A model generated the notes under the pieces. It saw only the letters and a list, made by a program, of their open reading frames with translations, made no database searches and was not told the origin of the DNA. From Halarcobacter sp. (GTDB taxonomy: Bacteria; Campylobacterota; Campylobacteria; Campylobacterales; Arcobacteraceae), in the NCBI GenBank assembly GCA_048571215.1, contig CP182352.1:1120001-1184000 (forward strand): a stretch of DNA of 64,000 nucleotides, written 5' to 3'. The position numbers and the translations under genes were made by a program. Below are positions 4,281 to 33,349 of the stretch, in pieces (position 1 is the first letter of the stretch; each line of letters opens with the position of its first letter).

Positions 4281-5045
4281 ATGGCAAATAGATGTGAAGA
4301 TGAGTTTAACCCTTGGCCTTCATTTGTTGATATCTTTTCATCGGTTATTCTTGTAATGCTTCTTTTCTTACTGGTTGTACTTGTAAATTTGGGGTTTTAT
4401 GCACAATTTAAATATAAAGTATCATATACAGGTTCAATAGCTACAGATGATTTGATAGTAAATGATAATCCTAGTGAGGGAACTGAAAAATTGTTTCAAA
4501 AACAGCAAGCACAACCAGTGACCCAAATAGAAACAAAAACAAAAGAACAATCACAAGCTGTATCTCAAATGCAAAGTGAGATTATTAGATTAAGAAAAAT
4601 GATTAAAGAGAGAACAGTAAAAGCAAAAGAGAAACACGAATCAGAAATTGAAGCTGGTGGGATTGATGTAAAAGATAGAAAAGATGATGACAATAAATCT
4701 AAACAAACTATTATTAATAGTGAAGATTACTTTATTATTACCTTTAAAGGAAATGAGATATTTTTTGATAATGAGATAACTAAAAAATTAAAAGGTTTTT
4801 TAAATGATGCAAAAGAAAAATATAAAAAATATAAAATCTCAATTACAGCTGCTGATGTTCAAGGGCAAGCTAGTGCAACAGTTGCAAAACAGATCTCGTT
4901 AGCTAGAACAATTGGTGCAAGAAATCTTATTCGAAAATTTGGTTATGAGAAAAAAGATGTAAGAGTTGATTTATTATCTAGCACAGACGTAAAAGAAAAT
5001 ATAAACAAAAAAAATGGATATTTAGTTATTAGGATAAAAAGATAG
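4281..5045 (+). CDS. MotB-family subunit (SiiA-like) with a C-terminal OmpA-like domain
   Basis: EDEFNPWPSFVD followed by one TM helix (MotB-type W-x4-D); C-terminal domain with ISLARTIGARNLI resembling OmpA-like LSxxRA. Confidence 0.85.
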   Translation: MANRCEDEFNPWPSFVDIFSSVILVMLLFLLVVLVNLGFYAQFKYKVSYTGSIATDDLIVNDNPSEGTEKLFQKQQAQPVTQIETKTKEQSQAVSQMQSEIIRLRKMIKERTVKAKEKHESEIEAGGIDVKDRKDDDNKSKQTIINSEDYFIITFKGNEIFFDNEITKKLKGFLNDAKEKYKKYKISITAADVQGQASATVAKQISLARTIGARNLIRKFGYEKKDVRVDLLSSTDVKENINKKNGYLVIRIKR

Positions 5046-8000
5046 TGATAAGCAGATTTATAAAATATATATTATTTACTTTTTTAATTGTTTCCTCAAC
5101 TATGGCATTAAATGATGAAAATAATCTTAATTTAATAGCGCCTAAAAAACTCAATCAGCTTGAAGGAGAAAAAGATTCTTTAAAAAAAATAGAAAGAACA
5201 TATGTATCAGAAACACCTTCTGTAAGAACTGCAAAAATAAAAAAAGCAAATCAAGACCAAGCTTTAAATACTAAACTTTATACAAAAGTAAAACTTATAG
5301 ATGTTGTACTAGAAACACTATCAAGAAGTGATACTTTAAAATCATCAAGAGAAAATGTAATTCAGTATGAATTAAAAGTTAAAAATGCAATTGCTGATTA
5401 TTATCCTACTGTAAATTTTAGTTATGAATATGGTCGAACTAAAACAAAACCTGATAGTAGTGGAAATAATCATTTTAGATTTTATACTGATGATAACTTT
5501 GAATTTATATTAAGACAAAACTTATATTCAGGTTTTGCAACTAATTATAATATTAAAAGTATTGGAAAAAAACTTGAAGTAGCTAGAAATCAATACAGAA
5601 TTACCCTTGATGAAGAGATTAAAAAAGCTGTAAAGGCTTATTTTGATGTTGTATTTGCAAATCGTTCAGTAAAAGTCAATGAACGAAATATGAAAAAACT
5701 TAATAGAATTTTGAAAATTGTTACAACAAAATATGATAATGGTGGTGCATCATTAGGGGATATGACCTCAATAAAAGCTAGCGTTGCAAATTCAATGACA
5801 AAATTAGTAAAAATCAAATCTAAATTTATTGAGTCATTGAGATATTATGAGTATATTGCAGGTGTTGATTTTCAAAAAACCTTACCATATGAGATGAATT
5901 TTGATATCTCTTTAAAAGAGTTTCAAGAGTTATATGAACATGCCTTAGAAAAAAATAGAAATTTGATTAATTATTATGAGAGTATAGAAGCTGAAAAGTA
6001 TGAACAAAAAAAGAGAAGAGCAGCTTTTGAACCGAAACTTGATTTTGAATTATCTTATGGGGAGATTTATCAAGGTGATGGTATAGCTAAAACTGAAACA
6101 GATGTAAGTGGAAAAGTAAAACTTACATATAATCTATTTAATGGTGGAAAAGATAAAAATAAAGTCCTAGAATCAAATAGTAAGGTTAGAAATCTAAACT
6201 ATAAACTTGAAGAAGAGAAGAAAAAAATCAAATGGAACCTTTCTAAGATACACACTTCTATGCAAAGTATTAATGAAGCCTTAAAAAGTACTATAGAAGA
6301 GATTAAAGCCTCTAGAAAGATGGTTTCAGCATATTGGGATGCTTTTAAGCTTGGAGAGCAAGATTTACAAACACTACTGCAAGGACAAAGACAATTAAAC
6401 TCAGCAGAAACAGAACTTGTTGGTTTTGAAAAAAGTCAAATTATCAACTTCTTTAATACTTTAGAGTTAACAGGAGAACTATCTTCATTTTTCAATGTTG
6501 ATCCAGGAAATCCTAAATTTATAGATTTTTCAAAAAGTGATTATAAAAAAACAGTTATAGCAAAAGATGGACAATTATTATCTTTAACTGGCGATATTGC
6601 AAAAGATAAACTTGAAAAAGAAAAAGAGATTAAAAAACAAGAAGAAAAACCAAAAGAGATTGTAGCTACAAAAATCCCTTTAGATGAAAAACTTAGTAAA
6701 TATGTAGAAGAGTTTAAGAGTTTTGATGATAATAGTTTTACAATAGAGATTGGTGACTTTGATTCGATTTTTGATGCCTTTGATTTCATGATAAAAAATA
6801 AAATAGATGATAACTCTTTTACCTATGAAGTTGTTGATAAATATAATATAAAAACAAAAATTGCCCACAATAATTTTAAAACAAAAGAGGAAGCAAATAA
6901 CTATATAAAACTTTTGGAAGAGAAAAAGTTAGGAAAAGAGTATAAGGTAAGGTTAGTAAAAGATATTAAAGCTTTATATGATAGTTATATGAAAGGTTTA
7001 GCAATAAAACCTCCTAAACCAAAAGTTAAAACTAAAATAAAAATTGTTGAAAAGCTAATTCAAGCACCAGTTAAAAAAGAGTTTCAACCTGATGAACAGT
7101 TTAAAAATAAGTTTTTATCTTCACCTGATGATTTTTATACTATAAATGTATCATCTTTTACAGATTTGAAAACTTTAGAGAAATTTGTTTTAAAAAATGA
7201 GATCAAAGATAATTCATTTTTCTTTAGATATGGCAATAATGGACAACTTATTAAGTTAGTATATGGGGTTTATGAAAATTATACTAATAATATAGAAGAT
7301 CAAATAAATAAGTTGATTTTAGAAAATAAAAATATTTTTCCACTAGTGGAAAAGCTTGGACCTGTAAAAGAGCTATATAATGAAAATATTCAATTTAATA
7401 AAAAAGATGAAAAAGAAGATAAAGAAGACAAAGCTATCCATGAGAACAAATCTAAAGAGATAAAAGAAAATAAAAAAGATGATGAAGTTTTAACTTTAAC
7501 AAAAAGAGTCTCATTAGATGATATAAATAAAGAGAAAAAAGAAAAAATAGAAAAAGCAAAAAAAGAGATTGTTAAAATCTTAGATAAGAATAAAGCTTCA
7601 AATGATAATCAAAAAAATAAAAAAGAGAATATAACAAAAGAAGAAGAGGCAAATTTAGATAGTGTAGTACAAAAAGAAGTATTACAAAAATCTGATGAAA
7701 AACTTGAAAAAGACAAACCTAAAGAGGATATTAAAAAAACTTTAGAAAAAGAAGTAAAAAAAGAGATTATTGATGCACCAAAAAAAGAAGTTAAAAAAGA
7801 GTTAAGCTTAGAAAAAAACTTTTTAAATAGCTTCATAGAGGCACCAAGAAGTTCATATACTATTAATTTAGCTTCATTTCCTACAAAAGAATTAGCAAAA
7901 GAGTATATATCAAATAACAATATTCAAGAAAACAGTTTATTTGTAAGAGCTGATAATGGTGTTATTAAAGTTTTAAATGGGATATATAATACAAGAGAAA

Positions 8001-9562
8001 AGGCAAATAAAGCGATAACTTCATTACCTGAATCAATACAAAGAAATAATCCTTATCTACAAAAAATATTTAGAGTTCAAGATTTGATTAAAGCTAATAG
8101 TTCAAACATTGAAGCACTTCAATTGACAAATAAAGTTGATTTAGAAGAGGAAAAACTTGCAAAAGTAGAAGTAGAAAAAAAAGCTAAACTTGAACTTGAA
8201 AGAAAAGCAAAACTTGATGCAGAAAAACTTGCAAAAGTAGAAGCACAGAAAGAAGCTGAAGATGAAGCTAAAGAAAAAGCAAAACTAGAGGCACAAAAGT
8301 TAGAAAAAGAAAGATTAGCAAAATTAGAAGCTAAAGAAAAAGAAAAAGAAGAAGCTCAAAGAAAAGCAAAACTTGAAGCAGAAAAATTTGCAAAATTGGA
8401 AGCACAGAAAAAAACTGAAGAGGAAGTTAAAGAAAAAGCAAAAGAAGAGGCTCAAAGAAAAGCTAAACTTGAAGCAGAAAAACTTGCAAAATTAGAAGCA
8501 CAGAAAAAAGCTGAAGAGGAAGCTAAAGAAAAAGAAAAATTAGAAGCACAAAAGTTAGAAAAAGAAAGACTTGCTAAAGAAGAAGCAGATAAAAAAGATA
8601 AATTAGCAAAAGAAGAAGCTGAAAGAAAAGCTAAACTTCTTGATGAAAAAGCAGCGCAAAAGGCTAAAGAAGAGGCTTATAAAAAAGCTCAACTTGAAGT
8701 TGAAAGATTAAGAAAAGAGCGACTTGAAAAAGAAGAGATACAAAGAAAAGCTCATGCAGAAGCTATAAAGCAAGCAAGATTAAAAGCACAAATGAAAGCA
8801 AAACTTGAAGCAAAAAAAGCAGAAATTGAAAGAATAGGAAAAGAAAAAGCAGCAAAAAAAGCAAAAGAGATTGCTGAAAGAAAAGCTAAACTCGAAGCTG
8901 AGCAAAAAGCAAAAGAGATTGCTGAAAGAAAAGCTAAACTTGAAGCTGAGCAAAAAGCAAAAGAAGAAGCAGAGAAAAAAGCTAAACTCGAAGCTGAGCA
9001 AAAAGCAAAAGAAGCAGCAGAAAAAAAAGCTAAAGAAGCACAAAAGTTAGAAAAAGAAAGATTGGCAAAACTTGAAGCTAAAAGAAAAGTAAAAAGCATA
9101 GAGAACAAAAAAGAGGATATAGAAAAAGATGCAAGTTTAGAGATAAGTGGATTAAAAAATGAAAAAACTAGCACTTTAAATCCTAATAAAACTACTGTAA
9201 ATAAGCTAAAATTATCATCTAGTCCAATTGAAGAGATAGATTTTGGAGCAAATGGAACAGAAAAAAAACAGAAGGTAATCCCTTATAACAAAAGACAAGA
9301 TAATTTTGCTAATAAATTTGCAAATACATCTAAAAATAAATATACATTAAAAATCATCACATTAAAACCTAGTGAAGTTAAATGGTTTGAAAATGTGCGT
9401 GGATTGTCTCCTACTCATGTTGTAGTTAAAAATAAAAAAAGAGCGACTATCTATTATGGTATCTATGATACTATTGAAGAAGCAAAAAAAGATATAGTAA
9501 ATCTTCATCCTTTAATCTATGAGTCAAATCCTCCTGTTGTAAAAATAGGAACTGTAAAATGA
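5045..9562 (+). CDS. TolC-family outer membrane protein fused to four SPOR-like domains and a TolA-like E/K/A-rich region
   Basis: Signal peptide; two OEP repeats (ADYYPTVNF..LRQNLYSGF; AAFEPKLDF..YNLFNGG); repeats of YTINLASF...GIYNTREKANKAITSLP..NP; KAKLEAE repeats. Confidence 0.85.
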   Translation: MISRFIKYILFTFLIVSSTMALNDENNLNLIAPKKLNQLEGEKDSLKKIERTYVSETPSVRTAKIKKANQDQALNTKLYTKVKLIDVVLETLSRSDTLKSSRENVIQYELKVKNAIADYYPTVNFSYEYGRTKTKPDSSGNNHFRFYTDDNFEFILRQNLYSGFATNYNIKSIGKKLEVARNQYRITLDEEIKKAVKAYFDVVFANRSVKVNERNMKKLNRILKIVTTKYDNGGASLGDMTSIKASVANSMTKLVKIKSKFIESLRYYEYIAGVDFQKTLPYEMNFDISLKEFQELYEHALEKNRNLINYYESIEAEKYEQKKRRAAFEPKLDFELSYGEIYQGDGIAKTETDVSGKVKLTYNLFNGGKDKNKVLESNSKVRNLNYKLEEEKKKIKWNLSKIHTSMQSINEALKSTIEEIKASRKMVSAYWDAFKLGEQDLQTLLQGQRQLNSAETELVGFEKSQIINFFNTLELTGELSSFFNVDPGNPKFIDFSKSDYKKTVIAKDGQLLSLTGDIAKDKLEKEKEIKKQEEKPKEIVATKIPLDEKLSKYVEEFKSFDDNSFTIEIGDFDSIFDAFDFMIKNKIDDNSFTYEVVDKYNIKTKIAHNNFKTKEEANNYIKLLEEKKLGKEYKVRLVKDIKALYDSYMKGLAIKPPKPKVKTKIKIVEKLIQAPVKKEFQPDEQFKNKFLSSPDDFYTINVSSFTDLKTLEKFVLKNEIKDNSFFFRYGNNGQLIKLVYGVYENYTNNIEDQINKLILENKNIFPLVEKLGPVKELYNENIQFNKKDEKEDKEDKAIHENKSKEIKENKKDDEVLTLTKRVSLDDINKEKKEKIEKAKKEIVKILDKNKASNDNQKNKKENITKEEEANLDSVVQKEVLQKSDEKLEKDKPKEDIKKTLEKEVKKEIIDAPKKEVKKELSLEKNFLNSFIEAPRSSYTINLASFPTKELAKEYISNNNIQENSLFVRADNGVIKVLNGIYNTREKANKAITSLPESIQRNNPYLQKIFRVQDLIKANSSNIEALQLTNKVDLEEEKLAKVEVEKKAKLELERKAKLDAEKLAKVEAQKEAEDEAKEKAKLEAQKLEKERLAKLEAKEKEKEEAQRKAKLEAEKFAKLEAQKKTEEEVKEKAKEEAQRKAKLEAEKLAKLEAQKKAEEEAKEKEKLEAQKLEKERLAKEEADKKDKLAKEEAERKAKLLDEKAAQKAKEEAYKKAQLEVERLRKERLEKEEIQRKAHAEAIKQARLKAQMKAKLEAKKAEIERIGKEKAAKKAKEIAERKAKLEAEQKAKEIAERKAKLEAEQKAKEEAEKKAKLEAEQKAKEAAEKKAKEAQKLEKERLAKLEAKRKVKSIENKKEDIEKDASLEISGLKNEKTSTLNPNKTTVNKLKLSSSPIEEIDFGANGTEKKQKVIPYNKRQDNFANKFANTSKNKYTLKIITLKPSEVKWFENVRGLSPTHVVVKNKKRATIYYGIYDTIEEAKKDIVNLHPLIYESNPPVVKIGTVK
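8856..9030 (+). repeat. Intragenic 48-bp tandem repeat (about 3.5 copies, KAKEIAERKAKLEAEQ)
   Basis: GCAAAAGA recurs at 8861, 8909, 8957 and 9005. Confidence 0.85.
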
Positions 9563-15420: not shown

Positions 15421-16488
15421 ATGAAAATCGTTTATGACAATATTATATACTCTTTACAAAAAGCTGGTGGGATATCTGCTTATTGGAAAGGATTGAGTTC
15501 AAGACTTAAAAACTCTGGTATAGATATAATATTTTATGGCTACCCTAATGACAATATTTTTATGTCATATTTGGATGTTGATTTTAAAAAAGAGTCATCT
15601 ATAAACTATAAAATAAATCGATACCTAGACTTTCAACAAAAGCTTCCTAAAGGCTCTATTTTTCATAGTAGCTACTATCGTATTGCAAATCAAAAAGATG
15701 TTGTGAATATAACTACAGTACATGATTTTACTTATGAGTACTATAGAAGTGACTTAGCAAGACTTATTCATTCTTGGCAGAAATCTCGGGCTATCAATAA
15801 AAGTGATGGAATCATTTGTATATCTGAAAATACAAAAAAAGATCTTTTAAAGTTTTATCCAAATATAAAAGAAGAAAAAATAGAAGTGATTTACAATGGG
15901 GTAGATGATACATTTTGTCAACTTAAAGATCCATCTCAATATTTGAAAATTAGGTACCCTGTACTTTACAATAAAAAATATATCCTTTATGTTGGAAATA
16001 GAAATAGCTACAAAAATTTTGATATTGCGGTTAAAGTTGTAGAACAGATACATAACTGCGTTTTGGTTATTGTTGGAGGAGGAGATATATCTGATAAGGA
16101 AAAAAAGTTATTACAAAAAGAATATTTCCATTACCAAGGTATAAATGCAAAAGATTTAAATATTTTATATAACAATGCATTCTGTCTTTTATACCCATCT
16201 AGTTATGAAGGTTTTGGGATACCAATAGTAGAAGTTATGAGTGCAGGATGTCCTGTAATAAGTACTAATACTTCTTCCATACCAGAAGTTGCTGGTGATG
16301 CTGGATTATTGGTAGATAAAATAGAAGTTGAAGAGTTTATTCGACTCATATTAAAACTAGAAAATAAAAACTATAGAGATGAAATAATCAAAAAAGGGTT
16401 AAATCAAGCAAAAAAGTTTAGCTGGGATAAGTGTTTTGAAGAAACACTTGAATTTTATAAAAAAGTAGTAGGTAAAAAGTTTTCATGA
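15421..16488 (+). CDS. Glycosyltransferase family 4 (GT-B)
   Basis: AGGISAY, TVHD, YPSSYEGFGIPIVE, SSIPEVAG. Confidence 0.92.
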   Translation: MKIVYDNIIYSLQKAGGISAYWKGLSSRLKNSGIDIIFYGYPNDNIFMSYLDVDFKKESSINYKINRYLDFQQKLPKGSIFHSSYYRIANQKDVVNITTVHDFTYEYYRSDLARLIHSWQKSRAINKSDGIICISENTKKDLLKFYPNIKEEKIEVIYNGVDDTFCQLKDPSQYLKIRYPVLYNKKYILYVGNRNSYKNFDIAVKVVEQIHNCVLVIVGGGDISDKEKKLLQKEYFHYQGINAKDLNILYNNAFCLLYPSSYEGFGIPIVEVMSAGCPVISTNTSSIPEVAGDAGLLVDKIEVEEFIRLILKLENKNYRDEIIKKGLNQAKKFSWDKCFEETLEFYKKVVGKKFS

Positions 16489-16697
16489 AAATTCCAATAA
16501 TAACAGTTGTTTTAAATGGTGCCAAGACTATCAGAGGAACCATAGAATCTGTATTGAGCCAAACATATGACAATATTGAATATATTGTTATTGATGAAGA
16601 AAGTATAGATGATACCATGGATATAATTAATGAATATCAAAACAAGATTAGTAAGAGTTGGAAAGAGAAAAAATTGAATGGAGTATATTTTAGGTGA
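16485..16697 (+). pseudogene. Truncated GT2 (N-terminal 70 aa only)
   Basis: IITVVLNGAKTIRGTIESVLSQTYDNIEYIVID..SIDDT, then ends. Confidence 0.75.
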
Positions 16698-17725
16698 AAA
16701 ATATTGTAAAAGTGGTTTTAATAAATATGTGTATTTTTTTCTCAATAATTGGGTTTATTGTTTTATCTCCAATAATAATTTATAAAGGATATAAAAGTTT
16801 AAAAGATTTAATTATACAAGAGAAAACAAATGACAGTTTTTATAAAGAATATAAAAAAGTAAAACAAAAATATCATGATTTTGTAACTTATAAGGATGAA
16901 GAATTTCAAGGTAAAATTATAAATATTGATAAAAATGGGAATAGATTTACTCATGTATCTAAAAATTTTATTGATAATGATTCTAAGTACATATTTTTTG
17001 GAGGATCAATTATTTGGGGGTATGGAGAAAGTGATGAAAAAACTATTCCCTCAATTTATTCTCAAAAAAATAGAGTTTATACTGAAAATTTTGCAGTGAG
17101 TGGATATACTTCAAGACAATCACTAGCAAAATTAATTAACTATTATGTTAAAAACCCAATTTCAACAAAAAAAAGGATAATAATTTTTACTGATGGGGCC
17201 CTTGATTATTATATGAATTGTAGGGATGATGATATGACATTAAAAACAGGGTATAGTGAAAAAATAGTAAATATGTTAAATACAAAAAATCCATTGAGCT
17301 TTGAAATATTATCAAGTCCTAGTTTAGCTTTTTTTAAAGAATTAAAAAATAGATTAGAGAATAAAGAAGAAATATCTTTAAGAAAAGTTTGTTCTAAAGA
17401 AAAGATTAAATTTATTACAACATCTATATTAAGAGTTTGGAGTATTGCAAATCAACTTGCAAAAGCACATGGAGATGAGTTTATAGCAGTGCTTCCACCT
17501 TCAATATTAGATAAAGAAGATAATACTGAAGATTATAAAAAAGAGTATAAAGAATTAAGAAAAAATATTAAAAATTATACAGATATTAACTTTATTGATT
17601 TAAGTAAAATTTTTACAGATAATAAAAATGCATATTTAGATAGTATGCATTATTCATTTGAAGGAAAAAAGATATATGTTAAAGAATTAACAAAAGAAAT
17701 AAAAAAATTGGAAAAAAATAAATGA
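16694..17725 (+). CDS. Membrane-anchored SGNH/GDSL-fold protein
   Basis: N-terminal TM; block I FFGGS..WG, block II FAVSGY, block V DSMH. Confidence 0.8.
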   Translation: MKNIVKVVLINMCIFFSIIGFIVLSPIIIYKGYKSLKDLIIQEKTNDSFYKEYKKVKQKYHDFVTYKDEEFQGKIINIDKNGNRFTHVSKNFIDNDSKYIFFGGSIIWGYGESDEKTIPSIYSQKNRVYTENFAVSGYTSRQSLAKLINYYVKNPISTKKRIIIFTDGALDYYMNCRDDDMTLKTGYSEKIVNMLNTKNPLSFEILSSPSLAFFKELKNRLENKEEISLRKVCSKEKIKFITTSILRVWSIANQLAKAHGDEFIAVLPPSILDKEDNTEDYKKEYKELRKNIKNYTDINFIDLSKIFTDNKNAYLDSMHYSFEGKKIYVKELTKEIKKLEKNK

Positions 17726-18666
17726 AAAATATTTTTATAAATAGTATTATTTTTATTATATCTTTTATTATTATGTTATTTATAATAGAAGGTGTATTAA
17801 GAATTAAAAACTTAGATATGCGTAATTATAATATCGAAATGTGGAAATATACAAAAGAATTAAAAGTTAAAAGTGAGAATCCAAAACTTGGTTTTTATCA
17901 TAAACCATCAAGTGAAGCAATTCTTCAATCTGTAAAAATCCGTACAAATAGCTTTGGATTAAGAGGTAGAGAGATTTCAAAAGAAAGAAGTGTAAATAGA
18001 AGAGTTCTTTTTTTAGGTAGTTCTGCTACACTTGGATGGGGGGTTAAAGAAGAAAATACTATGATTTCACTTTTAAATAAGAGAATGGGTAGTGATGTAG
18101 AAGTTTTAAATGCAGGAGTTGGAAACTATAATAGTGTACGATATATTGAATTATTTTTCACAAAATTAAAAGAATTACATCCTACAGATATTGTTATACA
18201 TTTCTTTTTAAATGATGCAGAAGAACTCCATGTTCCTAAATCAAATTGGTTTTTACAAAATAGTCAATTAGCAGTTGTTACTTGGAACTTAATAAATAAG
18301 TTTGGTAATAATGGTACATTAATAGATTATTATAATAAAATATATGATGAAAATTATATAGGATATATCAATATGAATAATGCATTAGATAAATTAATTA
18401 AATATTGTGAAAAAAAAGATATTAGATTATATTTTACATTAATGCCAGATTTACATTATTTAAATAATACTGAGTTAGTACCATATTATAAAAAAGTAAC
18501 TAATTTAGTAAATAATAAAGGGATTAAATTTTTAGATTTAGGAGCTAAATTTAATAATAATGTAGAGGTAACAAAATATTGGGTTATGCCAAATGATGCA
18601 CATCCAAACGAATTAGCGCATAAAATTATGGCTGATCAAATTTATCCTTTTTTGCGCTTAAAATAA
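17722..18666 (+). CDS. Membrane-anchored SGNH/GDSL-fold protein
   Basis: N-terminal TM; FLGSSATLGWG, NAGVGNY, FLND, DAHPN. Confidence 0.88.
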   Translation: MKNIFINSIIFIISFIIMLFIIEGVLRIKNLDMRNYNIEMWKYTKELKVKSENPKLGFYHKPSSEAILQSVKIRTNSFGLRGREISKERSVNRRVLFLGSSATLGWGVKEENTMISLLNKRMGSDVEVLNAGVGNYNSVRYIELFFTKLKELHPTDIVIHFFLNDAEELHVPKSNWFLQNSQLAVVTWNLINKFGNNGTLIDYYNKIYDENYIGYINMNNALDKLIKYCEKKDIRLYFTLMPDLHYLNNTELVPYYKKVTNLVNNKGIKFLDLGAKFNNNVEVTKYWVMPNDAHPNELAHKIMADQIYPFLRLK

Positions 18667-18669
18667 AAA

Positions 18670-20010
18670 ATGATATTTAGTTCTTTAGACTTTTTAGTTT
18701 TTTTTATTGTTTATACTTTAATTTGGTTTTTAACGCCAAAAAAGTATAAGATAGCAACTATATTAATATTTAGTTTATTCTTTTATGGATATTGGAATTG
18801 GAATTATATTTTATTGCCAATTTTGTTAACATTAGTTGCTTTTATCTTTACTAAAATATTTCAAAATAATAAAAGTAAAACTAATTTAACAATTTCAATT
18901 ATTTTAATTCTCCTACCACTTATTTATTTTAAGTATTTTGATTTTATTTTAAATACAAAATTAATTGATATGCCAATACCTTTAGGTATTTCATTTATAA
19001 CTTTTACTTTAATTTCATATGTAGTTGATGTTTATAAAAATAAATCCCCATATGAAAATAGTTTTTCAATACTTTTATCTTATATTATGTATTTTCCTCA
19101 ATTAATTGCTGGACCTATTTTAAGACCAAATGAACTTATACCTCAATTAAAAGAGTTTATTGATGTAAAAATGAGACTTCGTTTTGTTGCATTTGTAATT
19201 TTTACGATTGGCTTGGCAAAAAAAACTGTTTTTGCTGATCAATTAGCCCATTATGTCGATCCAATATATTTAAATCCTATTGAGGCTAGTTTTGAAGAAT
19301 GGTTGATTACATTTTATGCATTTCCTGTTCAACTTTATTGCGATTTTAGTGGATATACTGATATGGCAATTGGATTAGCTTTATTTTTTGGGGTTAATTT
19401 GCCTTTAAACTTTAATAAACCTTATTTAGTTAAAACAATTCCTGATTTTTGGAGAAATTGGCATATTTCATTATCAACATGGATAAGAGATTATGCTTAT
19501 TTCCCTTTAGGTAAAATACTTAGTAACATGTATCTTAGAACATTGATTGTAATGACATTAGTTGGGTTGTGGCATGGTGCTTCATGGACAATGGTTATTT
19601 TTGGTTTTATACATGGAATACTTGTTGCTTTTTCTAATTTTTTAAGAATAAAGAAAATTAAAAATCCATTGCCTGTTTTTATGCAAATAATTTTAACTTT
19701 TCATATATTTAGTGCAACACTAATATTATTCCGGGCAACAGATTTAGATAATGCACTTGATATGATAAGTGTATTAATTAATTTTGAGAGTTTAAATATC
19801 CAAAGTTTTCAATATTTTTTATACCCTATACTTTTAATAAGTATATTTTTTATATCTCATCCTTTTGATAACATTGAACAGATTAAAGGTTATGCAAATA
19901 AATATAAAAATTTATATATAGGATTATTTTTAGTTTTTTTATGGATATTATCTATAAGTTTGAGTATATCTAACAGCGGAAGTGATAAATTTATATACTT
20001 TGATTTTTAG
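18670..20010 (+). CDS. MBOAT O-acyltransferase (AlgI/DltB/PatA-like)
   Basis: PLGISFITF, FPQLIAGPI, DFSGYTDMA, FWRNWHISLS, GLWHGA; C-terminus FIYFDF. Confidence 0.95.
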   Translation: MIFSSLDFLVFFIVYTLIWFLTPKKYKIATILIFSLFFYGYWNWNYILLPILLTLVAFIFTKIFQNNKSKTNLTISIILILLPLIYFKYFDFILNTKLIDMPIPLGISFITFTLISYVVDVYKNKSPYENSFSILLSYIMYFPQLIAGPILRPNELIPQLKEFIDVKMRLRFVAFVIFTIGLAKKTVFADQLAHYVDPIYLNPIEASFEEWLITFYAFPVQLYCDFSGYTDMAIGLALFFGVNLPLNFNKPYLVKTIPDFWRNWHISLSTWIRDYAYFPLGKILSNMYLRTLIVMTLVGLWHGASWTMVIFGFIHGILVAFSNFLRIKKIKNPLPVFMQIILTFHIFSATLILFRATDLDNALDMISVLINFESLNIQSFQYFLYPILLISIFFISHPFDNIEQIKGYANKYKNLYIGLFLVFLWILSISLSISNSGSDKFIYFDF

Positions 20011-20058: not shown

Positions 20059-20445
20059 ATGATAATGATTAAAAAAAATGATTTAAAGATTTTTGTATAT
20101 ATATGGGCAATAATTTTCTTAATGATTGGTGTTTATCCTATACTAAAAGAAGAACCCTTACGATATATTTTTATTATAATATCTATAAGTATGTTTATCA
20201 TATCTTTAGTAAATATAAATTTATATATAAAACCATATAATATTTGGATGAAATTTGGTAAAATTATGAATAAAATTTCAACTTTCATTATAATGTTTAT
20301 TTTATTTTATTTTTTATTTACTCCTATATCTTTAATATTGAAAGTGTTTTCAAAAGATTTATTAAATAAAAAAATAGACTCTACTGTATCATCTTATTGG
20401 ATAAAAAGAGAAGAACAACCTCAATCTATGAAAAAACAATTTTAG
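20059..20445 (+). CDS. SxtJ-family membrane protein
   Basis: KPYNIWMKFGKIM..I....ILFYFLFTP..LILK..SKDLL..K.D...SYWI.R....SMKKQF pattern; next to a carbamoyltransferase. Confidence 0.8.
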   Translation: MIMIKKNDLKIFVYIWAIIFLMIGVYPILKEEPLRYIFIIISISMFIISLVNINLYIKPYNIWMKFGKIMNKISTFIIMFILFYFLFTPISLILKVFSKDLLNKKIDSTVSSYWIKREEQPQSMKKQF

Positions 20446-20454
20446 GATAAATAA

Positions 20455-20598
20455 ATGTTAAAAGAACTTTGGGATTTTATTAAAGTAAGAAAAAAATATT
20501 GGTTAGCACCTATTATATTATTGATGTTATTATTAGGGACTATAATTGTATCTGCAACAGGATCTAGTGTTTCTCCATTTGTTTATGCTTTATTTTAA
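20455..20598 (+). CDS. 47-aa SxtK/DUF5989-family membrane peptide (not in the ORF track)
   Basis: MLKELWDFIKVRKKYWLAPIILLMLLLGTIIVSATGSSVSPFVYALF; AGGA RBS upstream; fills the gap between SxtJ and the carbamoyltransferase. Confidence 0.88.
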   Translation: MLKELWDFIKVRKKYWLAPIILLMLLLGTIIVSATGSSVSPFVYALF

Positions 20599-20607
20599 GA
20601 ATAAGCT

Positions 20608-22494
20608 ATGTATATTTTAGGAATTTCAGCATATTACCATGATAGTGCGGCAGTGCTAATAGATGATGAAAATATTATTGCAGCTGTACAAGAAGAAAGA
20701 TTTACGAGAATAAAGCAAGATGAATCTTTTCCTAAAGAATCTATTAAATATTGTTTAGAAGAAGCAAATATTTCTTTAGAAGATATTGATTATATAGCTT
20801 TTTATGATAAACCTTTTATAAAATTTGAGAGATTATTAGAAACCTATCTTAATGAAGCACCTAAAGGCTTCAAATCCTTTTTTAAATCTATGCCTATTTG
20901 GTTAAAAGATAAATTATTTTTAAAAGATACTTTGGCTAATGAATTTAAAGATTTATTAGAAAGTTTGAAACCACAGCTTAAAGATAAAGAATTAAAGTTA
21001 TTTAAAAAAAATATATTAACTAAAATAAGATTTAGTGAACACCATCAAAGTCATGCATCAAGTGCATTTTATCCAAGTAGTTTTGAAAATGCTGCAATAT
21101 TAACAATAGATGGAGTAGGTGAATGGACTACTACATCTTTAGCTTATGGAAATGGAAACAAAATTACATTTTTAAATGAAATTAATTTTCCCCATTCTTT
21201 AGGATTATTATATTCAGCGTTTACTTATTATTTAGGATTTAAAGTAAATAGTGGTGAATATAAAGTTATGGGATTAGCACCATATGGAAAACCAATTTAT
21301 GTAGATATCATAAAAAGTAAATTAATAGATATAAAAGAGGATGGATCCTTTAGACTTGATATGAGTTATTTTAATTATACAACTGGTTTGACAATGACAA
21401 ATAGTAAATTTCATAATCTTTTTGGAGGTAAACCTAGAGAAAAAGAAGGAACCTTAACTCAAAAAGAAATGGATTTGGCAGCTTCAATTCAAGCAATTAC
21501 AGAAGAAATAATGATAAAACTTGCAAAATATGCAAAAGAAATAACAGGTAGCAATAATTTGTGTTTAGCTGGGGGAGTAGCTTTAAACTGTGTTGGTAAT
21601 GGGAAAATATATAAGGAAAAGATTTTTGAAAATATATGGATACAACCAGCCTCTGGTGACGCAGGTGGAGCATTAGGGGCTGCATATTGTTTATATTTTC
21701 AAGAATTTGATAATTTAAGAAAAATAGAAAGTAATAAAATTGATAAAATGCAAGGTTCCTATCTTGGACCTAAATACTCAAATGAATATATAAAAAACTT
21801 TTTAGATAGTGAAGGTGCAAAATACGAATTTATAGAAAATGAAGAATCATTATTATCAATAGTTGCACAAGAACTTGTCAACGGAAAAGTTGTTGGTTGG
21901 CATCAAGGTAGAATGGAATATGGACCTAGATCTTTAGGAAATAGAAGTATTATAGGAGATCCTCAAAATATTGATATGCAAACTACAATGAATATGAAGA
22001 TTAAGTTTAGAGAAAGCTTTAGACCATTTGCACCATCGGTAATAAAAGAAAAAGTAGATAAATGGTTTGATATAAAAGATGAATCTCCATATATGTTATT
22101 GGTTAGTGATGTTAGAGATGATAAACGATTATCATTATGTGATACGGAAAAAAATTTAGAAGGTATAGAAAAACTAAAACAAAAACGAAGTGAAATACCT
22201 GCAGTAACACATATTGATTATTCTGCAAGAGTTCAAACAGTTGATAAAAATACCAATAAAAGATATTATCATTTATTAAGTAAGTTTGATAGTTTAACCT
22301 CTTGTCCTATTTTGGTTAATACATCATTTAATGTACGAGGTGAGCCTATTGTCTGTTCTCCTAAAGATAGTTATATATGTTTTATGCGTACTGGAATTGA
22401 TATATTAGTTTTGGAAGACTTTATATTATATAAAACTGAACAAAATGCCAATGATTATGATGATAACTGGAAAGAGACTTTTGAGCTTGATTAG
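20608..22494 (+). CDS. O-carbamoyltransferase (NodU/CmcH/SxtI family)
   Basis: ILGISAYYHDSAA, QEERFTRIK, EHHQSHA, GEYKVMGLAPYG, AGGVALNC, EYGPRSLGNRS, FRPFAP, NTSFNVRGEPIV. Confidence 0.97.
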   Translation: MYILGISAYYHDSAAVLIDDENIIAAVQEERFTRIKQDESFPKESIKYCLEEANISLEDIDYIAFYDKPFIKFERLLETYLNEAPKGFKSFFKSMPIWLKDKLFLKDTLANEFKDLLESLKPQLKDKELKLFKKNILTKIRFSEHHQSHASSAFYPSSFENAAILTIDGVGEWTTTSLAYGNGNKITFLNEINFPHSLGLLYSAFTYYLGFKVNSGEYKVMGLAPYGKPIYVDIIKSKLIDIKEDGSFRLDMSYFNYTTGLTMTNSKFHNLFGGKPREKEGTLTQKEMDLAASIQAITEEIMIKLAKYAKEITGSNNLCLAGGVALNCVGNGKIYKEKIFENIWIQPASGDAGGALGAAYCLYFQEFDNLRKIESNKIDKMQGSYLGPKYSNEYIKNFLDSEGAKYEFIENEESLLSIVAQELVNGKVVGWHQGRMEYGPRSLGNRSIIGDPQNIDMQTTMNMKIKFRESFRPFAPSVIKEKVDKWFDIKDESPYMLLVSDVRDDKRLSLCDTEKNLEGIEKLKQKRSEIPAVTHIDYSARVQTVDKNTNKRYYHLLSKFDSLTSCPILVNTSFNVRGEPIVCSPKDSYICFMRTGIDILVLEDFILYKTEQNANDYDDNWKETFELD

Positions 22495-26395: not shown

Positions 26396-27056
26396 TTTCA
26401 AAAATCAAAATACTTACAAGGTTTATTATTTATTTATAGATTTATTTATAAAACCATCAAAGAATATTAAGCCAAAATCTATTTTGATTGTACGTTTAGA
26501 TGCAATTGGAGATTATGTACTTTTTAGATACTATATAGAAATAGTTAAGAAAAGTGAAAAATATAAGGATTATTCAATTACACTTCTTGGGAATATATCT
26601 TGGAAAAGTATTAGCAACGAGCTAGATAAAGAAATTATAGATGAGTTTTTATGGTTAGATAGAAATAAATTTATAAAAGACTTTAAATATAGATATACTA
26701 AGCTTCAAGAAATCACGTCTAAAGAGTATGAAGTATTACTAAATCCAGTATATAGTAGAGAATTTTTTCTTGGCGATAGTATATCAAAATTAGTTTGTGC
26801 TAAAGAAAAAATTGCAAGTAAAGGAGATTTGTCAAATATAGAAAAGTGGCAAAAAGACTTAACTGATAATTATTTTACTAACTTAATAGAGGCAAAAAAT
26901 GATGTATTATTTGAGTTTGATAGAAATAAAGAATTTTTTGAAAATTTATTTGATATAAATTTAGATATAATAAAACCATATATTGAATTAAAAGATAAAA
27001 ATTTAGGATTTAGTCTTCCAAAAAACTATGTTGTATTTTTTATAGGAGCCAGTGCA
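26392..27056 (+). pseudogene. Glycosyltransferase family 9 pseudogene (5' frameshift, 3' truncated)
   Basis: MISKIKILTRFIIYL* then frameshift to IVRLDAIGDY; paralogue of 34499-35650; similarity ends at FIGAS. Confidence 0.85.
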
Positions 27057-27355
27057 TTTCAACTGTTTACTCCTTTGTATCTCCATATAGAGAATCTTGA
27101 AAAGCTATTAGAGAAATGGTTAAAAATAATATAGTTATTTACCTAAAAACTCATATAGAAACTTGTAAGAGTAGAGATTATAAAGGTGTATATGAAAAAG
27201 CACTAAAAGGTGAACTTCAAAACTTTACAGGTATAAATGATATATATGAAGAACCACAACATGCAGAAATAGTTATAGATACAACAAAAACATCAATTGA
27301 TGAAGCAGTTGAAAGAATAGTAAAATTTGTAAAAAAAGAGTTTGTAAGTAGATGA
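27057..27355 (+). pseudogene. cysC: Adenylylsulfate kinase 3' fragment
   Basis: SFVSPYRES*KAIREMVK...CKSRDYKGVYEKALKGELQNFTGINDIYEEP; P-loop half missing. Confidence 0.85.
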
Positions 27356-30408: not shown

Positions 30409-31508
30409 TAGAAAATTTATTTGGTGGAATATATAAAAATAAAACAGTATTAGTTACTGGACATACAGGATTTAAAGGTTCATGGCTTGTATATTGGCTT
30501 ACTCAAATGGGAGCAAATGTAATAGGGTATTCTCTTGAAGCAGCAACTAATCCTAATCATATTTCACTTTTAGATATTGATATAATATCTGTAATAGGTG
30601 ATATAAGAGATTTAGGTAAACTTGATGAAACTTTCAAACAATATAAACCAGATATTGTTTTTCATCTAGCAGCCCAACCTTTGGTGAGACTTTCTTATGA
30701 AAACCCTATAGAAACATATGAAACAAATGTTATAGGAACTCTCAAAGTTTTTGAAGCATGTAGAAAACACAATGTAAAAGCTATAGTAAATATTACAAGT
30801 GATAAAGCTTATGAAAATAAAGAATGGATTTGGGGATATAGAGAAGATGATCCAATGGGTGGATATGATCCATATAGCTCATCTAAAGGGTGCGCAGATC
30901 TTTTAGCAAGTTCTTATAGAAACTCTTATTTCAATTTAAATGACTACAGATCTAAACACAATACACTATTAGCTACTTGTAGAGCAGGAAATGTTATAGG
31001 TGGTGGTGATTGGGCAAAAGACAGACTTATAACTGACATTATGGTTTCCGTTTCACAAAATAAAAAAGTAAATATACGAAATCCAAAAGCTACAAGACCT
31101 TGGGAACATGTACTTGAACCACTTAGTGGATATTTACATATTGGACAAAAACTACTAGAAGAAAAAAAAGAGTTTGCAGAAGCTTGGAACTTTGGACCAA
31201 GTGATGAAGGAAGTATTACAGTTGAAGAAGTAGTTCAAAATGTTAAAAAACATTGGGATAAAATAGATTATGAAATAAATCGTGACCCAAATCAACTTCA
31301 TGAAGCAAATCTTTTAAAGCTAGACTGTTCTAAAGTACATATTCAATTAAAATGGAAAGATGTTTGGGACAGTGATAAGACATTTGAAAAAACTGTAAAG
31401 TGGTATAAAACTTATTATGAAGAAAACAAAAAAGTTTTAACTGAGAGTGATTTGGAGTCTTATATACAAGATGCAAAGGCAAAAAAAATAGAATGGGCGA
31501 TTGTCTGA
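30372..31508 (+). CDS. rfbG: CDP-glucose 4,6-dehydratase
   Basis: TGHTGFKGSWL, HLAAQPLVR, TSDKAYEN, DPYSSSK, RAGNVIGGGDW, RPWEHVLEPL. Confidence 0.96.
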   Translation: MEWKQCPMESMVIENLFGGIYKNKTVLVTGHTGFKGSWLVYWLTQMGANVIGYSLEAATNPNHISLLDIDIISVIGDIRDLGKLDETFKQYKPDIVFHLAAQPLVRLSYENPIETYETNVIGTLKVFEACRKHNVKAIVNITSDKAYENKEWIWGYREDDPMGGYDPYSSSKGCADLLASSYRNSYFNLNDYRSKHNTLLATCRAGNVIGGGDWAKDRLITDIMVSVSQNKKVNIRNPKATRPWEHVLEPLSGYLHIGQKLLEEKKEFAEAWNFGPSDEGSITVEEVVQNVKKHWDKIDYEINRDPNQLHEANLLKLDCSKVHIQLKWKDVWDSDKTFEKTVKWYKTYYEENKKVLTESDLESYIQDAKAKKIEWAIV

Positions 31509-32581
31509 TGAGTAAAAAATTTAAAAGTTTAACTATAATAATTACAAATCTTGCGATTTTCTTTTTATTAATTGGGATAATTATTAGTTTTCCTATTTTT
31601 ACATATAATTTTTATAAATTATTTACTAGCGAAGATAAAAAGTCTAAAAACTATAATTATCAAAACCCTAAAATAATAAAAGAAACAGATGGTTTAAAAC
31701 AAAAATTTTCAGATACTGAAGGTCTTATATATGTAAAATATACTGGAAAATATGTGAATATAGATAAAATTGGAAATCGTAAGACTGATTTATCTGAGGA
31801 AATTTTGTTAGACCAAGCAGAATATTTTTTCTTTGGTCCATCAGTGATTTGGGGGTATGGAGAGGAAGATAAAAAAACTATTCCATCAATTTTTTCTCAA
31901 ACAAATAATGTTTTTGTTAAAAACTTTTCTTCAAATGGATACACTAGTCATTATTCATTGAGTAAATTAATTAATTTTTATATAGATAATCCTAAATCAG
32001 ATAAAAAAAGAGTTATAATATTTAATGATGGTCCCCTAGATTATTTTAGTAATTGTAAAAATAATGATTTTATATTAAAATCAAACATATCAGATGATAT
32101 AAATAGTTTGATAACATCAAAGACTAATACTAAAAACTTTGAATTTAGTTTTAAATATATTATATATCCATTTAAAAGTCTAATTAATAAAATGATAAAT
32201 AAAGTTGAAATGTTTTTGTAGTAAAGAAAAAATTAATTTCATAACTGATGGTATTATTAAAAACTGGCAGTTTGCAAAAAGATTGTTGAGTCTCACAATG
32301 ATATTTTCATATCAGTTTTAATACCTGTGTCATATCTTGATGGAAATAGTTCCGATATAAAAATTGATAAATTTACATTTGATGAAAAAACTCAAAATGC
32401 AATTAAAATTGGATATGGACAAATAAAAACAAAAATGAAAACTATGAATATGAATTTTGTTAATCTTGATGAGATATTTATTGATAGACCAAATTCTTAC
32501 TTAGATAAATTACATTATTCATATAATGGTAAAATTATTTTTGTCAATGAATTAAATAAAAAAATAAAAAATATTAAGTAA
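31508..32581 (+). pseudogene. SGNH-fold protein pseudogene, diverged paralogue of 16694-17725
   Basis: FFGPSVIWGYGEED.KTIPSIFSQ and YLDKLHYS lie in different frames; frameshifts near 32210-32290. Confidence 0.8.
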
Positions 32582-32590
32582 AGGTAAAAT

Positions 32591-33349
32591 ATGAGAAACT
32601 TATTAGATAACGTACTAGTATCTTTATTGTCTGTTACAATTATGTTATTTATAATAGAAGGTGTATAAAGAATTAAAAACTCAGATATGCGTAATTACAA
32701 TATCGAAATGTGGAAATATACAAAAGAATTAAAAGTTAAAAGTGAGAATCCAAAACTTGGTTTTTATCATAAACCATCAAGTGAATCAATTCTTCAATCT
32801 GTAAAAATTCGTACAAATAGCTTTGGATTAAGAGGTAAAGAGATTTTAAAAGAAAAAAGTGTAAATAGAAGAGTTCTTTTTTTAGGTAGTTCTGCTACAC
32901 TTGGATGGGGTGTTAAAGAAGAAAATACTATGATTTCACTTTTAAATAAGAGAATGGTTAGTGATGTTAGAGATGATAAACGATTATCATTATGTGATAC
33001 GGAAAAAAATTTAGAAGGTATAGAAAAACTAAAACAAAAACGAAGTGAAATACCTGCAGTAACACATATTGATTATTCTGCAAGAGTTCAAACAGTTGAT
33101 AAAAATACCAATAAAAGATATTATCATTTATTAAGTAAGTTTGATAGTTTAACCTCTTGTCCTATTTTGGTTAATACATCATTTAATGTACGAGGTGAGC
33201 CTATTGTCTGTTCTCCTAAAGATAGTTATATATGTTTTATGCGTACTGGAATTGATATATTAGTTTTGGAAGATTTTATATTATATAAAACTGAACAAGA
33301 TGCCAATGATTATGATGATAACTGGAAAGAGACTTTTGAGCTTGATTAG
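32591..33349 (+). pseudogene. Chimeric pseudogene: SGNH 5' part fused in frame to carbamoyltransferase 3' part
   Basis: Premature TAA near 32666; 32639-32957 copies 17770-18088 and 32955-33413 copies 22100-22558. Confidence 0.9.

What the first reader, a model, noticed from the sequence alone, without database searches (positions are those of the whole stretch)
20455..20598. Unannotated 47-aa peptide ends in a DltX-like FxYxxF motif, mirrored at the MBOAT C-terminus
Seen: a small ORF missing from the ORF track, with a basic RKK patch, one TM helix, a Ser/Gly linker and C-terminal FVYALF. The MBOAT two genes upstream ends in FIYFDF. Established: DltX is a roughly 50-aa single-TM peptide whose C-terminal F-I/L-Y-x-x-F tyrosine carries the acyl intermediate between DltB and DltD, and the same hexapeptide is fused to the C-terminus of AlgI/PatA-type MBOATs. 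Inference: SxtK/DUF5989 is a free-standing tyrosine shuttle (N-in, C-out by the positive-inside rule), here for a carbamoyl group. Two shuttle motifs and two SGNH proteins in one operon suggest two parallel relays.
Basis: partly seen in the sequence, partly recalled or inferred. Interest (0 to 1): 0.85.

Follow-up and report, generated by a model that had tools for sequence, protein, structure and literature searches.

The report
Tyrosine-tailed carbamoyl shuttle microprotein (SxtK)
This 47-residue membrane protein ends in a highly conserved tyrosine and travels with one branch of carbamoyl-adding enzymes, and because relatives fuse that enzyme, an esterase-like domain and the same tyrosine tail into one chain, it likely hands a carbamoyl group across the membrane to decorate cell-surface sugars.

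Summary
The ORF is real: DUF5989/SxtK, between sxtJ and an SxtI-type carbamoyltransferase. The tail Tyr is kept in 113 of 116 homologs picked by their N-terminus alone, with no Phe or Trp swap. SxtK follows the carbamoyltransferase, not the MBOAT. Within 4 kb of 63 loci: SxtI 58, SxtJ 59, SGNH 29, MBOAT 1. All 65 SxtK-positive genomes among 402 sampled carry SxtI-branch enzymes.

Key new evidence: a family of soluble SGNH-carbamoyltransferase fusions inside the SxtI branch. 64 of 65 with intact catalytic motifs end in Y-x-[ML]-[FY]; 1 of 30 degenerate ones has the Tyr. Five of six assessable SxtK-less loci pair an anchorless SGNH with a soluble Tyr-tailed protein.

Best reading (about 0.6): carbamoyltransferase to tail Tyr to membrane-anchored SGNH to surface glycan, without an MBOAT. 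The chemistry and the membrane crossing are untested, no complex model was obtained, and which SGNH serves which relay is unresolved. This scan reached the same idea earlier on other genomes (e1-7861802, e1-9798430).

The parts
20455..20598 (+). SxtK/DUF5989 microprotein, 47 aa: amphipathic N-terminal helix, RKK, one membrane helix, C-terminal PFVYALF
20584..20586 (+). Tyr44 codon, the proposed carbamoyl carrier (fourth residue from the C-terminus)
20059..20445 (+). SxtJ-family membrane protein, 128 aa, three hydrophobic segments, no conserved His
20608..22494 (+). SxtI-branch O-carbamoyltransferase, 628 aa, HHQSH (145) and GPRSLG (439) intact, aromatic amphipathic insert at about residues 73-105
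16694..17725 (+). SGNH-1, N-terminally anchored, Ser105 and DSMH; block II Gly kept, block III Asn absent
17722..18666 (+). SGNH-2, N-terminally anchored, Ser101 and DAH; Asn at the block II position as in C. jejuni PatB
   Evidence: PMC12148441 passage
18670..20010 (+). MBOAT acyltransferase with His302 and its own fused tail FIYFDF (Tyr443)
31493..33349 (+). Broken second copy of the cassette: frameshifted SGNH-1 paralog, and an SGNH-2 copy with an internal stop joined to the last 131 codons of the carbamoyltransferase; no MBOAT, sxtJ or sxtK
   Evidence: 99.6% nucleotide identity over 459 bases to the sxtI end; 86% over 523 bases to the SGNH-1/2 junction

Best explanation
SxtK is likely a tyrosine shuttle: the cytoplasmic SxtI carbamoyltransferase would load a carbamoyl group onto Tyr44, the tail would pass it, probably with SxtJ's help across the inner membrane, to the serine of a membrane-anchored SGNH protein, and that protein would place it on the surface glycan this operon is predicted to build. 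Shown: the gene, the invariant Tyr, the co-occurrence with SxtI, SxtJ and anchored SGNHs, independence from MBOATs, and soluble relatives that join or pair carbamoyltransferase, SGNH and a Tyr tail. Inferred: carbamoyl-Tyr and carbamoyl-Ser intermediates, the topology, the route by which the tail reaches SxtI (most likely the hydrophobic tail folds back into the membrane beside SxtJ and SxtI's aromatic insert), and the glycan acceptor. The MBOAT with its own tail likely runs a separate acetyl relay in the same operon.
For: (1) Unbiased Tyr test: 120 metagenome loci found with a DNA pattern for the N-terminus only. 116 reach a stop within 80 codons and 113 of them have Tyr at -4; of the other three, one keeps the tail with a read-through extension and two break off before it. 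No Tyr-to-Phe/Trp change, while the aromatic after RKK is F 47, W 36, Y 35, L 2 of 120. Divergent members change the flanking residues but keep the Tyr. (2) Neighbours within 4 kb of SxtK in the 63 of 200 loci with that much flank: SxtI 58, SxtJ 59, SGNH 29, MBOAT 1. Nine loci of other carbamoyltransferases have none of J, K or SGNH. (3) Genome profiles: SxtK in 26 of 151 genomes of a cyanobacterial sample, the same 26 that hold the SxtI branch; 39 of 251 in a Pseudomonadota sample, all 39 with the SxtI branch, none among 42 genomes holding only other carbamoyltransferases. The SGNH profile hits 34 of 39 SxtK-positive and 9 of 212 negative genomes; in the cyanobacterial sample 26 of 26 against 48 of 125. 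Ten cyanobacterial SxtK genomes have no MBOAT hit. All 10 genomes tested whose SxtIJK locus lacks an adjacent SGNH have 3-15 matches elsewhere. (4) 68 of 70 SxtK-adjacent SGNHs have an N-terminal hydrophobic anchor. (5) Fusions: 98 of 99 hits are anchorless SGNH plus carbamoyltransferase in one chain; the 13 sampled fall inside the SxtI branch. 64 of 65 with intact HHxxH and GPRxLG end in Y-x-[ML]-[FY]; 1 of 30 degenerate ones has Tyr at -4; background 25 of 1,285 ORFs. The Tyr is an invariant column in the 64. (6) Split soluble versions: L293 and L301 encode the tail domain separately, ending PFIYVMF and QFVYVMY; L288, L302 and L305 encode 31-39-aa basic peptides ending SIYPMH, SIYPLR and SIYPMF beside anchorless SGNHs. 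(7) Position -2 is aliphatic in carbamoyltransferase-linked tails and polar in 17 of 17 MBOAT tails. (8) Precedent: acyl-Tyr relay to SGNH serine in DltX and PatA (PMC12148441). In L. wollei sxtL is missing where sxtI is truncated and no carbamoylated product is made (PMC3037375).
Against: No biochemical or structural test. SxtJ has no conserved His or other catalytic residue and no fold relative in the Atlas search, so nothing shown explains how the tail meets a cytoplasmic enzyme. Six other residues (W6, R12, W16, P19, P41, F47) are as invariant as Tyr44 in alignment A4, which a binding epitope would also give; A4 was filtered to rows ending in Phe. About half of the loci have no adjacent SGNH, and 5 of 39 SxtK-positive Pseudomonadota genomes gave no hit at 1e-20. 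SxtK-adjacent SGNHs mostly keep the block II Gly of ordinary hydrolases (32 of 62 parsed by a rough pattern), SGNH-1 lacks the block III Asn, and the best full-length solved match is CgnD, a slow hydrolase (PMC10070186). G511 has SxtI and SxtJ but no SxtK and no tail protein that I could find. One SxtK-less enzyme (L305) still has the aromatic insert. Kin are not independent, the SGNH profile was built from SxtK neighbours, and the micro-ORF pattern was written after seeing the three peptides.
Confidence: 0.62

Rival explanations
1. SxtK and SxtJ are structural subunits that hold SxtI at the inner membrane, where it carbamoylates a lipid-linked sugar directly. The tail Tyr is a binding epitope or activator, and the SGNH is a hydrolase that removes or edits carbamoyl groups, as proposed for SxtL.
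For: SxtI carries a branch-specific aromatic amphipathic insert (108 of 122 against 0 of 9). Two SxtI-SxtJ fusions were seen (L084, L258). Block II Gly is common in the adjacent SGNHs. Reviews assign carbamoylation to SxtI with SxtJ and SxtK, and decarbamoylation to SxtL, as proposals (PMC2679770, PMC12300590).
Against: Soluble fusions have no membrane segment yet keep the same Tyr tail, and lose it when the carbamoyltransferase motifs decay. A hydrolase fused to the enzyme whose product it destroys would be a futile pairing (inference). No Tyr-to-Phe change in 113 tails.
Confidence: 0.15
2. The Tyr relay is real but stays on the cytoplasmic side or inside the membrane. The hydrophobic tail folds back, is loaded by SxtI and gives the group to a membrane-embedded or cytoplasmic acceptor; the anchored SGNHs are not periplasmic partners of this step.
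For: The last 12 residues are hydrophobic with an invariant Pro, unlike the polar MBOAT tails. This removes the crossing problem. About half of the loci lack an adjacent SGNH.
Against: In the loci examined, a membrane helix in the tail protein goes with anchored SGNHs plus SxtJ, and a soluble tail goes with anchorless SGNHs. SxtK separated from SxtI stays beside an SGNH in G248 and G342, and extra copies sit among SGNH genes.
Confidence: 0.13
3. The Tyr-tailed peptide is itself the final substrate: a carbamoylated peptide product or signal, processed afterwards by the SGNH, as CgnD releases the crocagin core.
For: CgnD is the best full-length solved match of the SGNH profile and lies in a cluster with a carbamoyltransferase. 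The soluble peptides are precursor-sized.
Against: The tail is fused to an 1,100-residue enzyme in 64 proteins, which suits a reusable arm rather than a consumed precursor. SxtK loci often sit among glycosyltransferase and other envelope genes.
Confidence: 0.06
4. SxtK is a DltX-type partner of the MBOAT in this operon and carries acyl groups.
For: Same motif register as DltX, and the MBOAT lies two genes upstream. Composite MBOAT plus SxtIJK loci recur (L021, L066, L275).
Against: MBOAT within 4 kb in 1 of 63 loci. No genome-level link: 16 of 26 against 56 of 125, p 0.14. This MBOAT already has its own tail.
Confidence: 0.04

Closest known systems
DltX with DltB (MBOAT) and DltD (SGNH); PatA tail with PatB (PMC12148441, passages and Discussion read)
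   Same: Single-pass microprotein ending in F-x-Y-x-x-F with an invariant Tyr; membrane-anchored SGNH partners with Ser and Asp-His motifs.
   Different: No MBOAT partner. The linked donor enzyme is a soluble carbamoyltransferase; the group would be carbamoyl. Position -2 is aliphatic rather than polar, a Pro precedes the motif, and SxtJ is an extra subunit. No sequence relationship to DltX was shown (no PDB or Atlas relative).
SxtI-SxtJ-SxtK-SxtL of cyanobacterial saxitoxin clusters (PMC2679770, PMC3037375, PMC12300590, passages read)
   Same: Same Pfam families (PF19588 SxtJ, PF19451) and the same four-gene set of carbamoyltransferase, membrane protein, microprotein and GDSL/SGNH protein.
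   Different: Here the cassette lies in a glycan operon with glycosyltransferases, a Wzx-type flippase and nucleotide-sugar enzymes, and no toxin genes were seen. The passages read give SxtJ and SxtK no mechanism and call SxtL a decarbamoylase; this reading makes the SGNH the last transferase.
NodU/TobZ/NovN/GdmN O-carbamoyltransferases (PDB matches)
   Same: Both Pfam domains and the HHxxH and GPRxLG motifs.
   Different: Those enzymes transfer directly to a small-molecule acceptor (recalled). The SxtI branch has an aromatic insert and comes with a Tyr tail and an SGNH.
CgnD / CgnI of crocagin biosynthesis (PMC10070186, passages read)
   Same: An SGNH of this type in a cluster with a carbamoyltransferase; best full-length solved match (8a2n).
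   Different: CgnD was shown to act as a slow leader-releasing hydrolase in vitro. The passages mention no SxtJ- or SxtK-like gene.

Membership tests
DUF5989 / SxtK (PF19451) | Score above the Pfam gathering cut-off over the whole model | tested here: met
   78.6 bits against 27, residues 1-47
DUF5989 / SxtK (PF19451) | Encoded with SxtJ and an SxtI-type carbamoyltransferase | tested here: met
   That PF19451 is the family of SxtK proper rests on gene order and recall; I did not align the named SxtK record.
DltX-type acyl shuttle (MBOAT-SGNH system) | C-terminal F-x-Y-x-x-F with invariant Tyr | tested here: met
DltX-type acyl shuttle (MBOAT-SGNH system) | Single membrane helix with the C-terminus outside | tested here: inconclusive
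   Hydropathy and charge bias fit N-in; the hydrophobic tail could fold back; no model was obtained
DltX-type acyl shuttle (MBOAT-SGNH system) | Obligate partner is an MBOAT that lacks its own tail | tested here: not met
   MBOAT near 1 of 63 loci; 10 of 26 SxtK genomes have no MBOAT hit; the local MBOAT has its own tail
DltX-type acyl shuttle (MBOAT-SGNH system) | Membrane-anchored SGNH acceptor with catalytic Ser and His | tested here: met
   Ser invariant and His in at least 90% of 59 rows; anchors in 68 of 70. Physical partnership not shown.
DltX-type acyl shuttle (MBOAT-SGNH system) | Covalent intermediate on the Tyr hydroxyl | not testable with these tools
   needs mass spectrometry or radiolabel
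PatB/OatA-type SGNH transferases | Ser or Asn in place of the block II Gly | tested here: inconclusive
   SGNH-2 has Asn, SGNH-1 has Gly; SxtK-adjacent set G 32, S 7, A 7, N 5 of 62 parsed by a rough pattern
MBOAT with fused tail (PatA/AlgI type), for the gene at 18670 | MBOAT domain, conserved His, C-terminal FxYxxF | tested here: met

The most novel reading that the evidence does not exclude
SxtI-J-K plus an SGNH is a third class of tyrosine relay beside MBOAT-SGNH and AT3-SGNH. A soluble carbamoyltransferase, not a membrane acyltransferase, loads a carbamoyl group on a terminal Tyr that crosses the inner membrane with SxtJ and feeds one or many outer SGNH transferases. The same chemistry runs in the cytoplasm as one-chain fusions and as overlooked 31-39-residue peptides. 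This would give DUF5989 and SxtJ a function in thousands of genomes and would recast SxtL-type proteins as the final carbamoyl transferases.
Probability: 0.5. Interest if true: 0.87.

Novelty: new variant of a known kind. Interest (0 to 1): 0.78.

Why it matters
It would explain how bacteria carbamoylate molecules outside the cytoplasm, where the ATP and carbamoyl phosphate the enzyme needs are absent. It would also assign a mechanism to two families (DUF5989, SxtJ) found in 26 of 151 and 39 of 251 genomes of the two phyla sampled. O-carbamoyl-tyrosine as a pathway intermediate was not found in my paper searches. The soluble one-chain fusions make the idea directly testable with a single purified protein, and Sinorhizobium meliloti pSymB carries the membrane version for genetics.

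Tried and rejected
Complex prediction of SxtI + SxtJ + SxtK was not available, so nothing was folded. Two single-chain folding jobs for a fusion protein were queued and had not finished, so there is no model. No RNA holder was listed for the operon; this says nothing on expression. Atlas searches gave only SxtJ's own family and nothing for SxtK outside PF19451; no solved relative of SxtK.

In-frame SxtJ-SxtK, SxtK-SxtI and SxtK-SGNH joins from the 'longer' search are mostly singletons with variable junctions; I treat them as read-through or frameshift errors and draw nothing from them.

I first assigned SGNH-2 to the MBOAT because its three nearest relatives (99 support) each precede an FIYFDF MBOAT. 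I withdrew this when G362 proved to have J-K-I about 12 kb away and all 7 SGNH-2 hits lay in SxtK-positive genomes. My recollection that the crocagin cluster has SxtJ/K homologs found no mention in the paper's main text and is dropped. Viral contigs: 33 stretches matched, 3 confirmed, 1 full-length SxtK without I or J nearby. A search for Leptospira locus tags named by NCBIfam gave no paper.

Full report
Observation. Window 20455-20598 (+) encodes a 47-residue peptide with an amphipathic start, RKK, one hydrophobic helix, a Ser/Gly linker and PFVYALF at the stop. It matches Pfam DUF5989 at 78.6 bits and is the only copy in the 3.6-Mb genome. The gene order is two glycosyltransferases and a fragment, SGNH-1, SGNH-2, MBOAT, SxtJ, this ORF, a carbamoyltransferase, then nucleotide-sugar enzymes, a sulfotransferase, a methyltransferase and a Wzx-type flippase. 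The MBOAT ends FIYFDF and has His302. The motif by itself is weak here: 20 of 22,483 open stretches end in FxYxxF. The family is patchy among kin: 2 of 100 family members and 0 of 7 of the same genus scored over the cut-off.

Is the Tyr special? The first locus search used a tail pattern and is biased. Of 120 loci, 4 ran open and 116 reached a stop; 113 have Tyr at -4. One of the other three keeps the tail with an extension and two break off before it. Phe at -6 changed three times and Phe at -1 once; the Tyr never became Phe or Trp, whereas the aromatic after RKK varies freely. More divergent members end in PLIYTMF, PFIYTLY, PFLYAIF and VFVYPFF. Against a special role, six other columns are equally invariant in alignment A4, whose 137 rows were filtered to those ending in Phe.

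Who is the partner? In the 63 of 200 loci with 4 kb on both sides, SxtI lay within 4 kb in 58, SxtJ in 59, an SGNH in 29 and an MBOAT in 1. Five genomes where SxtK stands apart all had an SxtI-type enzyme elsewhere and four had SxtJ. In 151 genomes from the phylum of a cyanobacterial record, SxtK occurred in 26, the same 26 that hold the top-scoring carbamoyltransferases (49% identity or more); four genomes with only 42-43% enzymes had none. In 251 genomes from the phylum of a Pseudomonadota record, all 39 SxtK genomes had the branch, 3 more had it without SxtK, and 42 with only other carbamoyltransferases had no SxtK. The branch boundary near 49% identity is soft. SxtK-adjacent enzymes form one clade (support 96, FastTree, 46 of 131 rows) with an aromatic amphipathic insert in 108 of 122 against 0 of 9 others. 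MBOATs show no link: 16 of 26 against 56 of 125. Carbamoyl-phosphate synthase genes lie next to the cassette in L028, L077 and L080.

The SGNH link. A profile built from 59 SxtK-neighbouring SGNHs hit 34 of 39 SxtK-positive and 9 of 212 negative Pseudomonadota genomes at 1e-20, with at most 9 candidates scored per genome. At 1e-8 it hit 26 of 26 and 48 of 125 in the cyanobacterial sample. All 10 genomes tested whose cassette lacks an adjacent SGNH had 3-15 matches elsewhere. Nine loci of other carbamoyltransferases had none nearby. 68 of 70 adjacent SGNHs have an N-terminal hydrophobic anchor. SxtK stays beside an SGNH when separated from SxtI (G248, G342). Extra or divergent copies sit among SGNH genes (L099, L167, L291). 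Against: about half of the loci lack an adjacent SGNH; most keep the hydrolase-type block II Gly; SGNH-1 lacks the block III Asn; and the best full-length solved match is the slow hydrolase CgnD. Kin are not independent, so these counts overstate significance.

Fusions and soluble versions. One SxtK-less genome (G511) held an SGNH fused to a degenerate carbamoyltransferase. Searching with it returned 99 proteins (only the 7,993 best word-sharing candidates were scored). 98 have an anchorless SGNH followed by a carbamoyltransferase, none has the aromatic insert, and the 13 sampled fall inside the SxtI branch (output partly cut). Of the 65 with both catalytic motifs, 64 end in an acidic stretch and then [STFA]-[VIM]-Y-x-[ML]-[FY]. 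Of the 30 lacking both motifs, 1 has Tyr at -4 (22 of them are 850 aa or longer). Four fragments were set aside. Background is 25 of 1,285 long ORFs. The terminal Tyr is invariant in the alignment of the 64. In L293 the same parts are three genes, and the small third one matches the fusion's tail domain (E 1.3e-6) and ends PFIYVMF, which bridges to SxtK's PFIYTLF. I opened 5 of 394 plasmid hits. Two have J, K and an anchored SGNH. Three lack K and have an anchorless SGNH plus a soluble Tyr tail: a tail-domain ORF in L301, and basic 35-39-residue peptides in L302 and L305. L288 has a 31-residue one. L287 has none that I found, and G429 is too fragmented to judge. A pattern written afterwards for such peptides hit 0 of 9 control loci, 2 places in 1.3 Mb of other loci and 1 in the own genome. 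These peptides are an amphipathic helix, a basic patch and the tail, that is, SxtK without its membrane helix. I could not see the neighbours of the 99 fusion proteins, so whether their genomes also hold SxtK is open.

Mechanism. In DltX and PatA a terminal FXYXXF Tyr takes an acyl group from an MBOAT and gives it to an SGNH serine (PMC12148441; passages and the Discussion read). The simplest reading of the three architectures is the same relay with a different donor: carbamoyltransferase to tail Tyr to SGNH Ser to acceptor. The tail is kept only with a catalytically intact enzyme, and its -2 residue is aliphatic in these systems but polar in 17 of 17 MBOAT tails, which suggests that the carbamoyltransferase reads it. 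A membrane helix in the tail protein goes with SxtJ and anchored SGNHs, which suggests delivery to the outer face; basic residues lie almost only before the helix. That aryl carbamates can carbamoylate serine enzymes, and that the enzyme uses ATP and carbamoyl phosphate through an adenylate, is recalled knowledge. The weak step is loading. SxtJ has no conserved His and no known fold relative. I infer that the hydrophobic tail folds back into the membrane beside SxtJ to reach SxtI, but no model could be obtained. In this operon the MBOAT likely runs a second, acetyl relay. SGNH-2's nearest relatives each precede such an MBOAT and it has the PatB-type Asn, while SGNH-1 groups weakly (95, long branches) with an SxtK-adjacent SGNH. 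All SGNH-2 relatives found in the genome search are in SxtK-positive genomes, so the assignment is open.

What is in print. DUF5989 gave 0 papers. sxtK + sxtJ + carbamoyltransferase gave 7, all on saxitoxin. The passages read (PMC2679770, PMC2684587, PMC3037375, PMC12300590, bioRxiv 10.64898/2026.06.11.731795) list SxtJ and SxtK as unknown or as working with SxtI, and SxtL as a proposed decarbamoylase. L. wollei lacks sxtL where sxtI is truncated, which fits either reading of SxtL. Searches showed no carbamoyl-tyrosine relay; I saw only their listings. PMC10070186 was read as passages. The original Dlt paper was not seen, subscription journals are mostly missing, and I opened no supplements; a supplementary survey of FXYXXF proteins could already list this family. 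Earlier notes of this scan reached the same idea on other genomes and describe soluble PFIY peptides in phages. They are not independent support, and I did not check their loci.

Verdict. A real, known but unexplained gene family. It fails membership of the DltX system on the MBOAT criterion but most likely works like it. Relay across the membrane 0.62; structural anchor with hydrolase 0.15; relay confined to the inner side 0.13; peptide as product 0.06; MBOAT partner 0.04. Interest 0.78.

Noticed in passing
window 31493-33349: Broken duplicate of the cassette: frameshifted SGNH-1 paralog, then an SGNH-2 copy with a stop codon joined to the last 131 codons of the carbamoyltransferase and the start of the epimerase.
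   Followed up: partly
G000:C1:3488778-3490532; 699800-703686; 606612-607706: The genome has a second carbamoyltransferase outside the SxtI branch with no J, K or SGNH nearby, a tandem pair of MBOATs ending FLYFNF each followed by an SGNH-like gene, and a lone SGNH-1 relative.
   Followed up: partly
L302:9303-9422 (CP049792.1): Unannotated 39-codon ORF with a ribosome-binding site, a basic patch and a Tyr at -4, between an SGNH and a second carbamoyltransferase-like gene in a cluster with an iron redox enzyme and an ATP-grasp ligase; similar in L288 and L305.
   Followed up: partly
L291:17929-18069: Divergent 46-aa single-helix peptide ending PFRYALF, below the Pfam cut-off, directly before an SGNH-SGNH-MBOAT group about 12 kb from J-K-I.
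   Followed up: partly
L084:243-2486; L258:2344-4587: Two SxtI-SxtJ fusions of 747 aa in unrelated genomes.
   Followed up: no
L292:6426-6867; G207, G208, G390, G422: Tandem or multiple SxtK copies in one genome.
   Followed up: no
L287:6231-11805: SxtI and SxtJ with a catalytically degenerate SGNH-carbamoyltransferase fusion and no SxtK or tail found; unexplained. About 30 such degenerate fusions exist.
   Followed up: partly
P0203: 390-aa protein with two membrane helices and a large domain between them, ending in a full SxtK; single record, may be chimeric.
   Followed up: no
L265:4989-5141: A full-length SxtK on a viral contig with no SxtI, SxtJ or SGNH within 5 kb.
   Followed up: no
window 16485-16697, 26484-27355: Gene fragments in the glycan operon: a 70-aa glycosyltransferase piece, a 216-aa protein that by eye resembles part of the GT9 at 34499, and a 79-aa APS kinase piece.
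   Followed up: no
window 5045-9562: 1,505-aa protein with outer-membrane efflux (TolC-like) and SPOR domains, upstream of a GGDEF-EAL gene.
   Followed up: no
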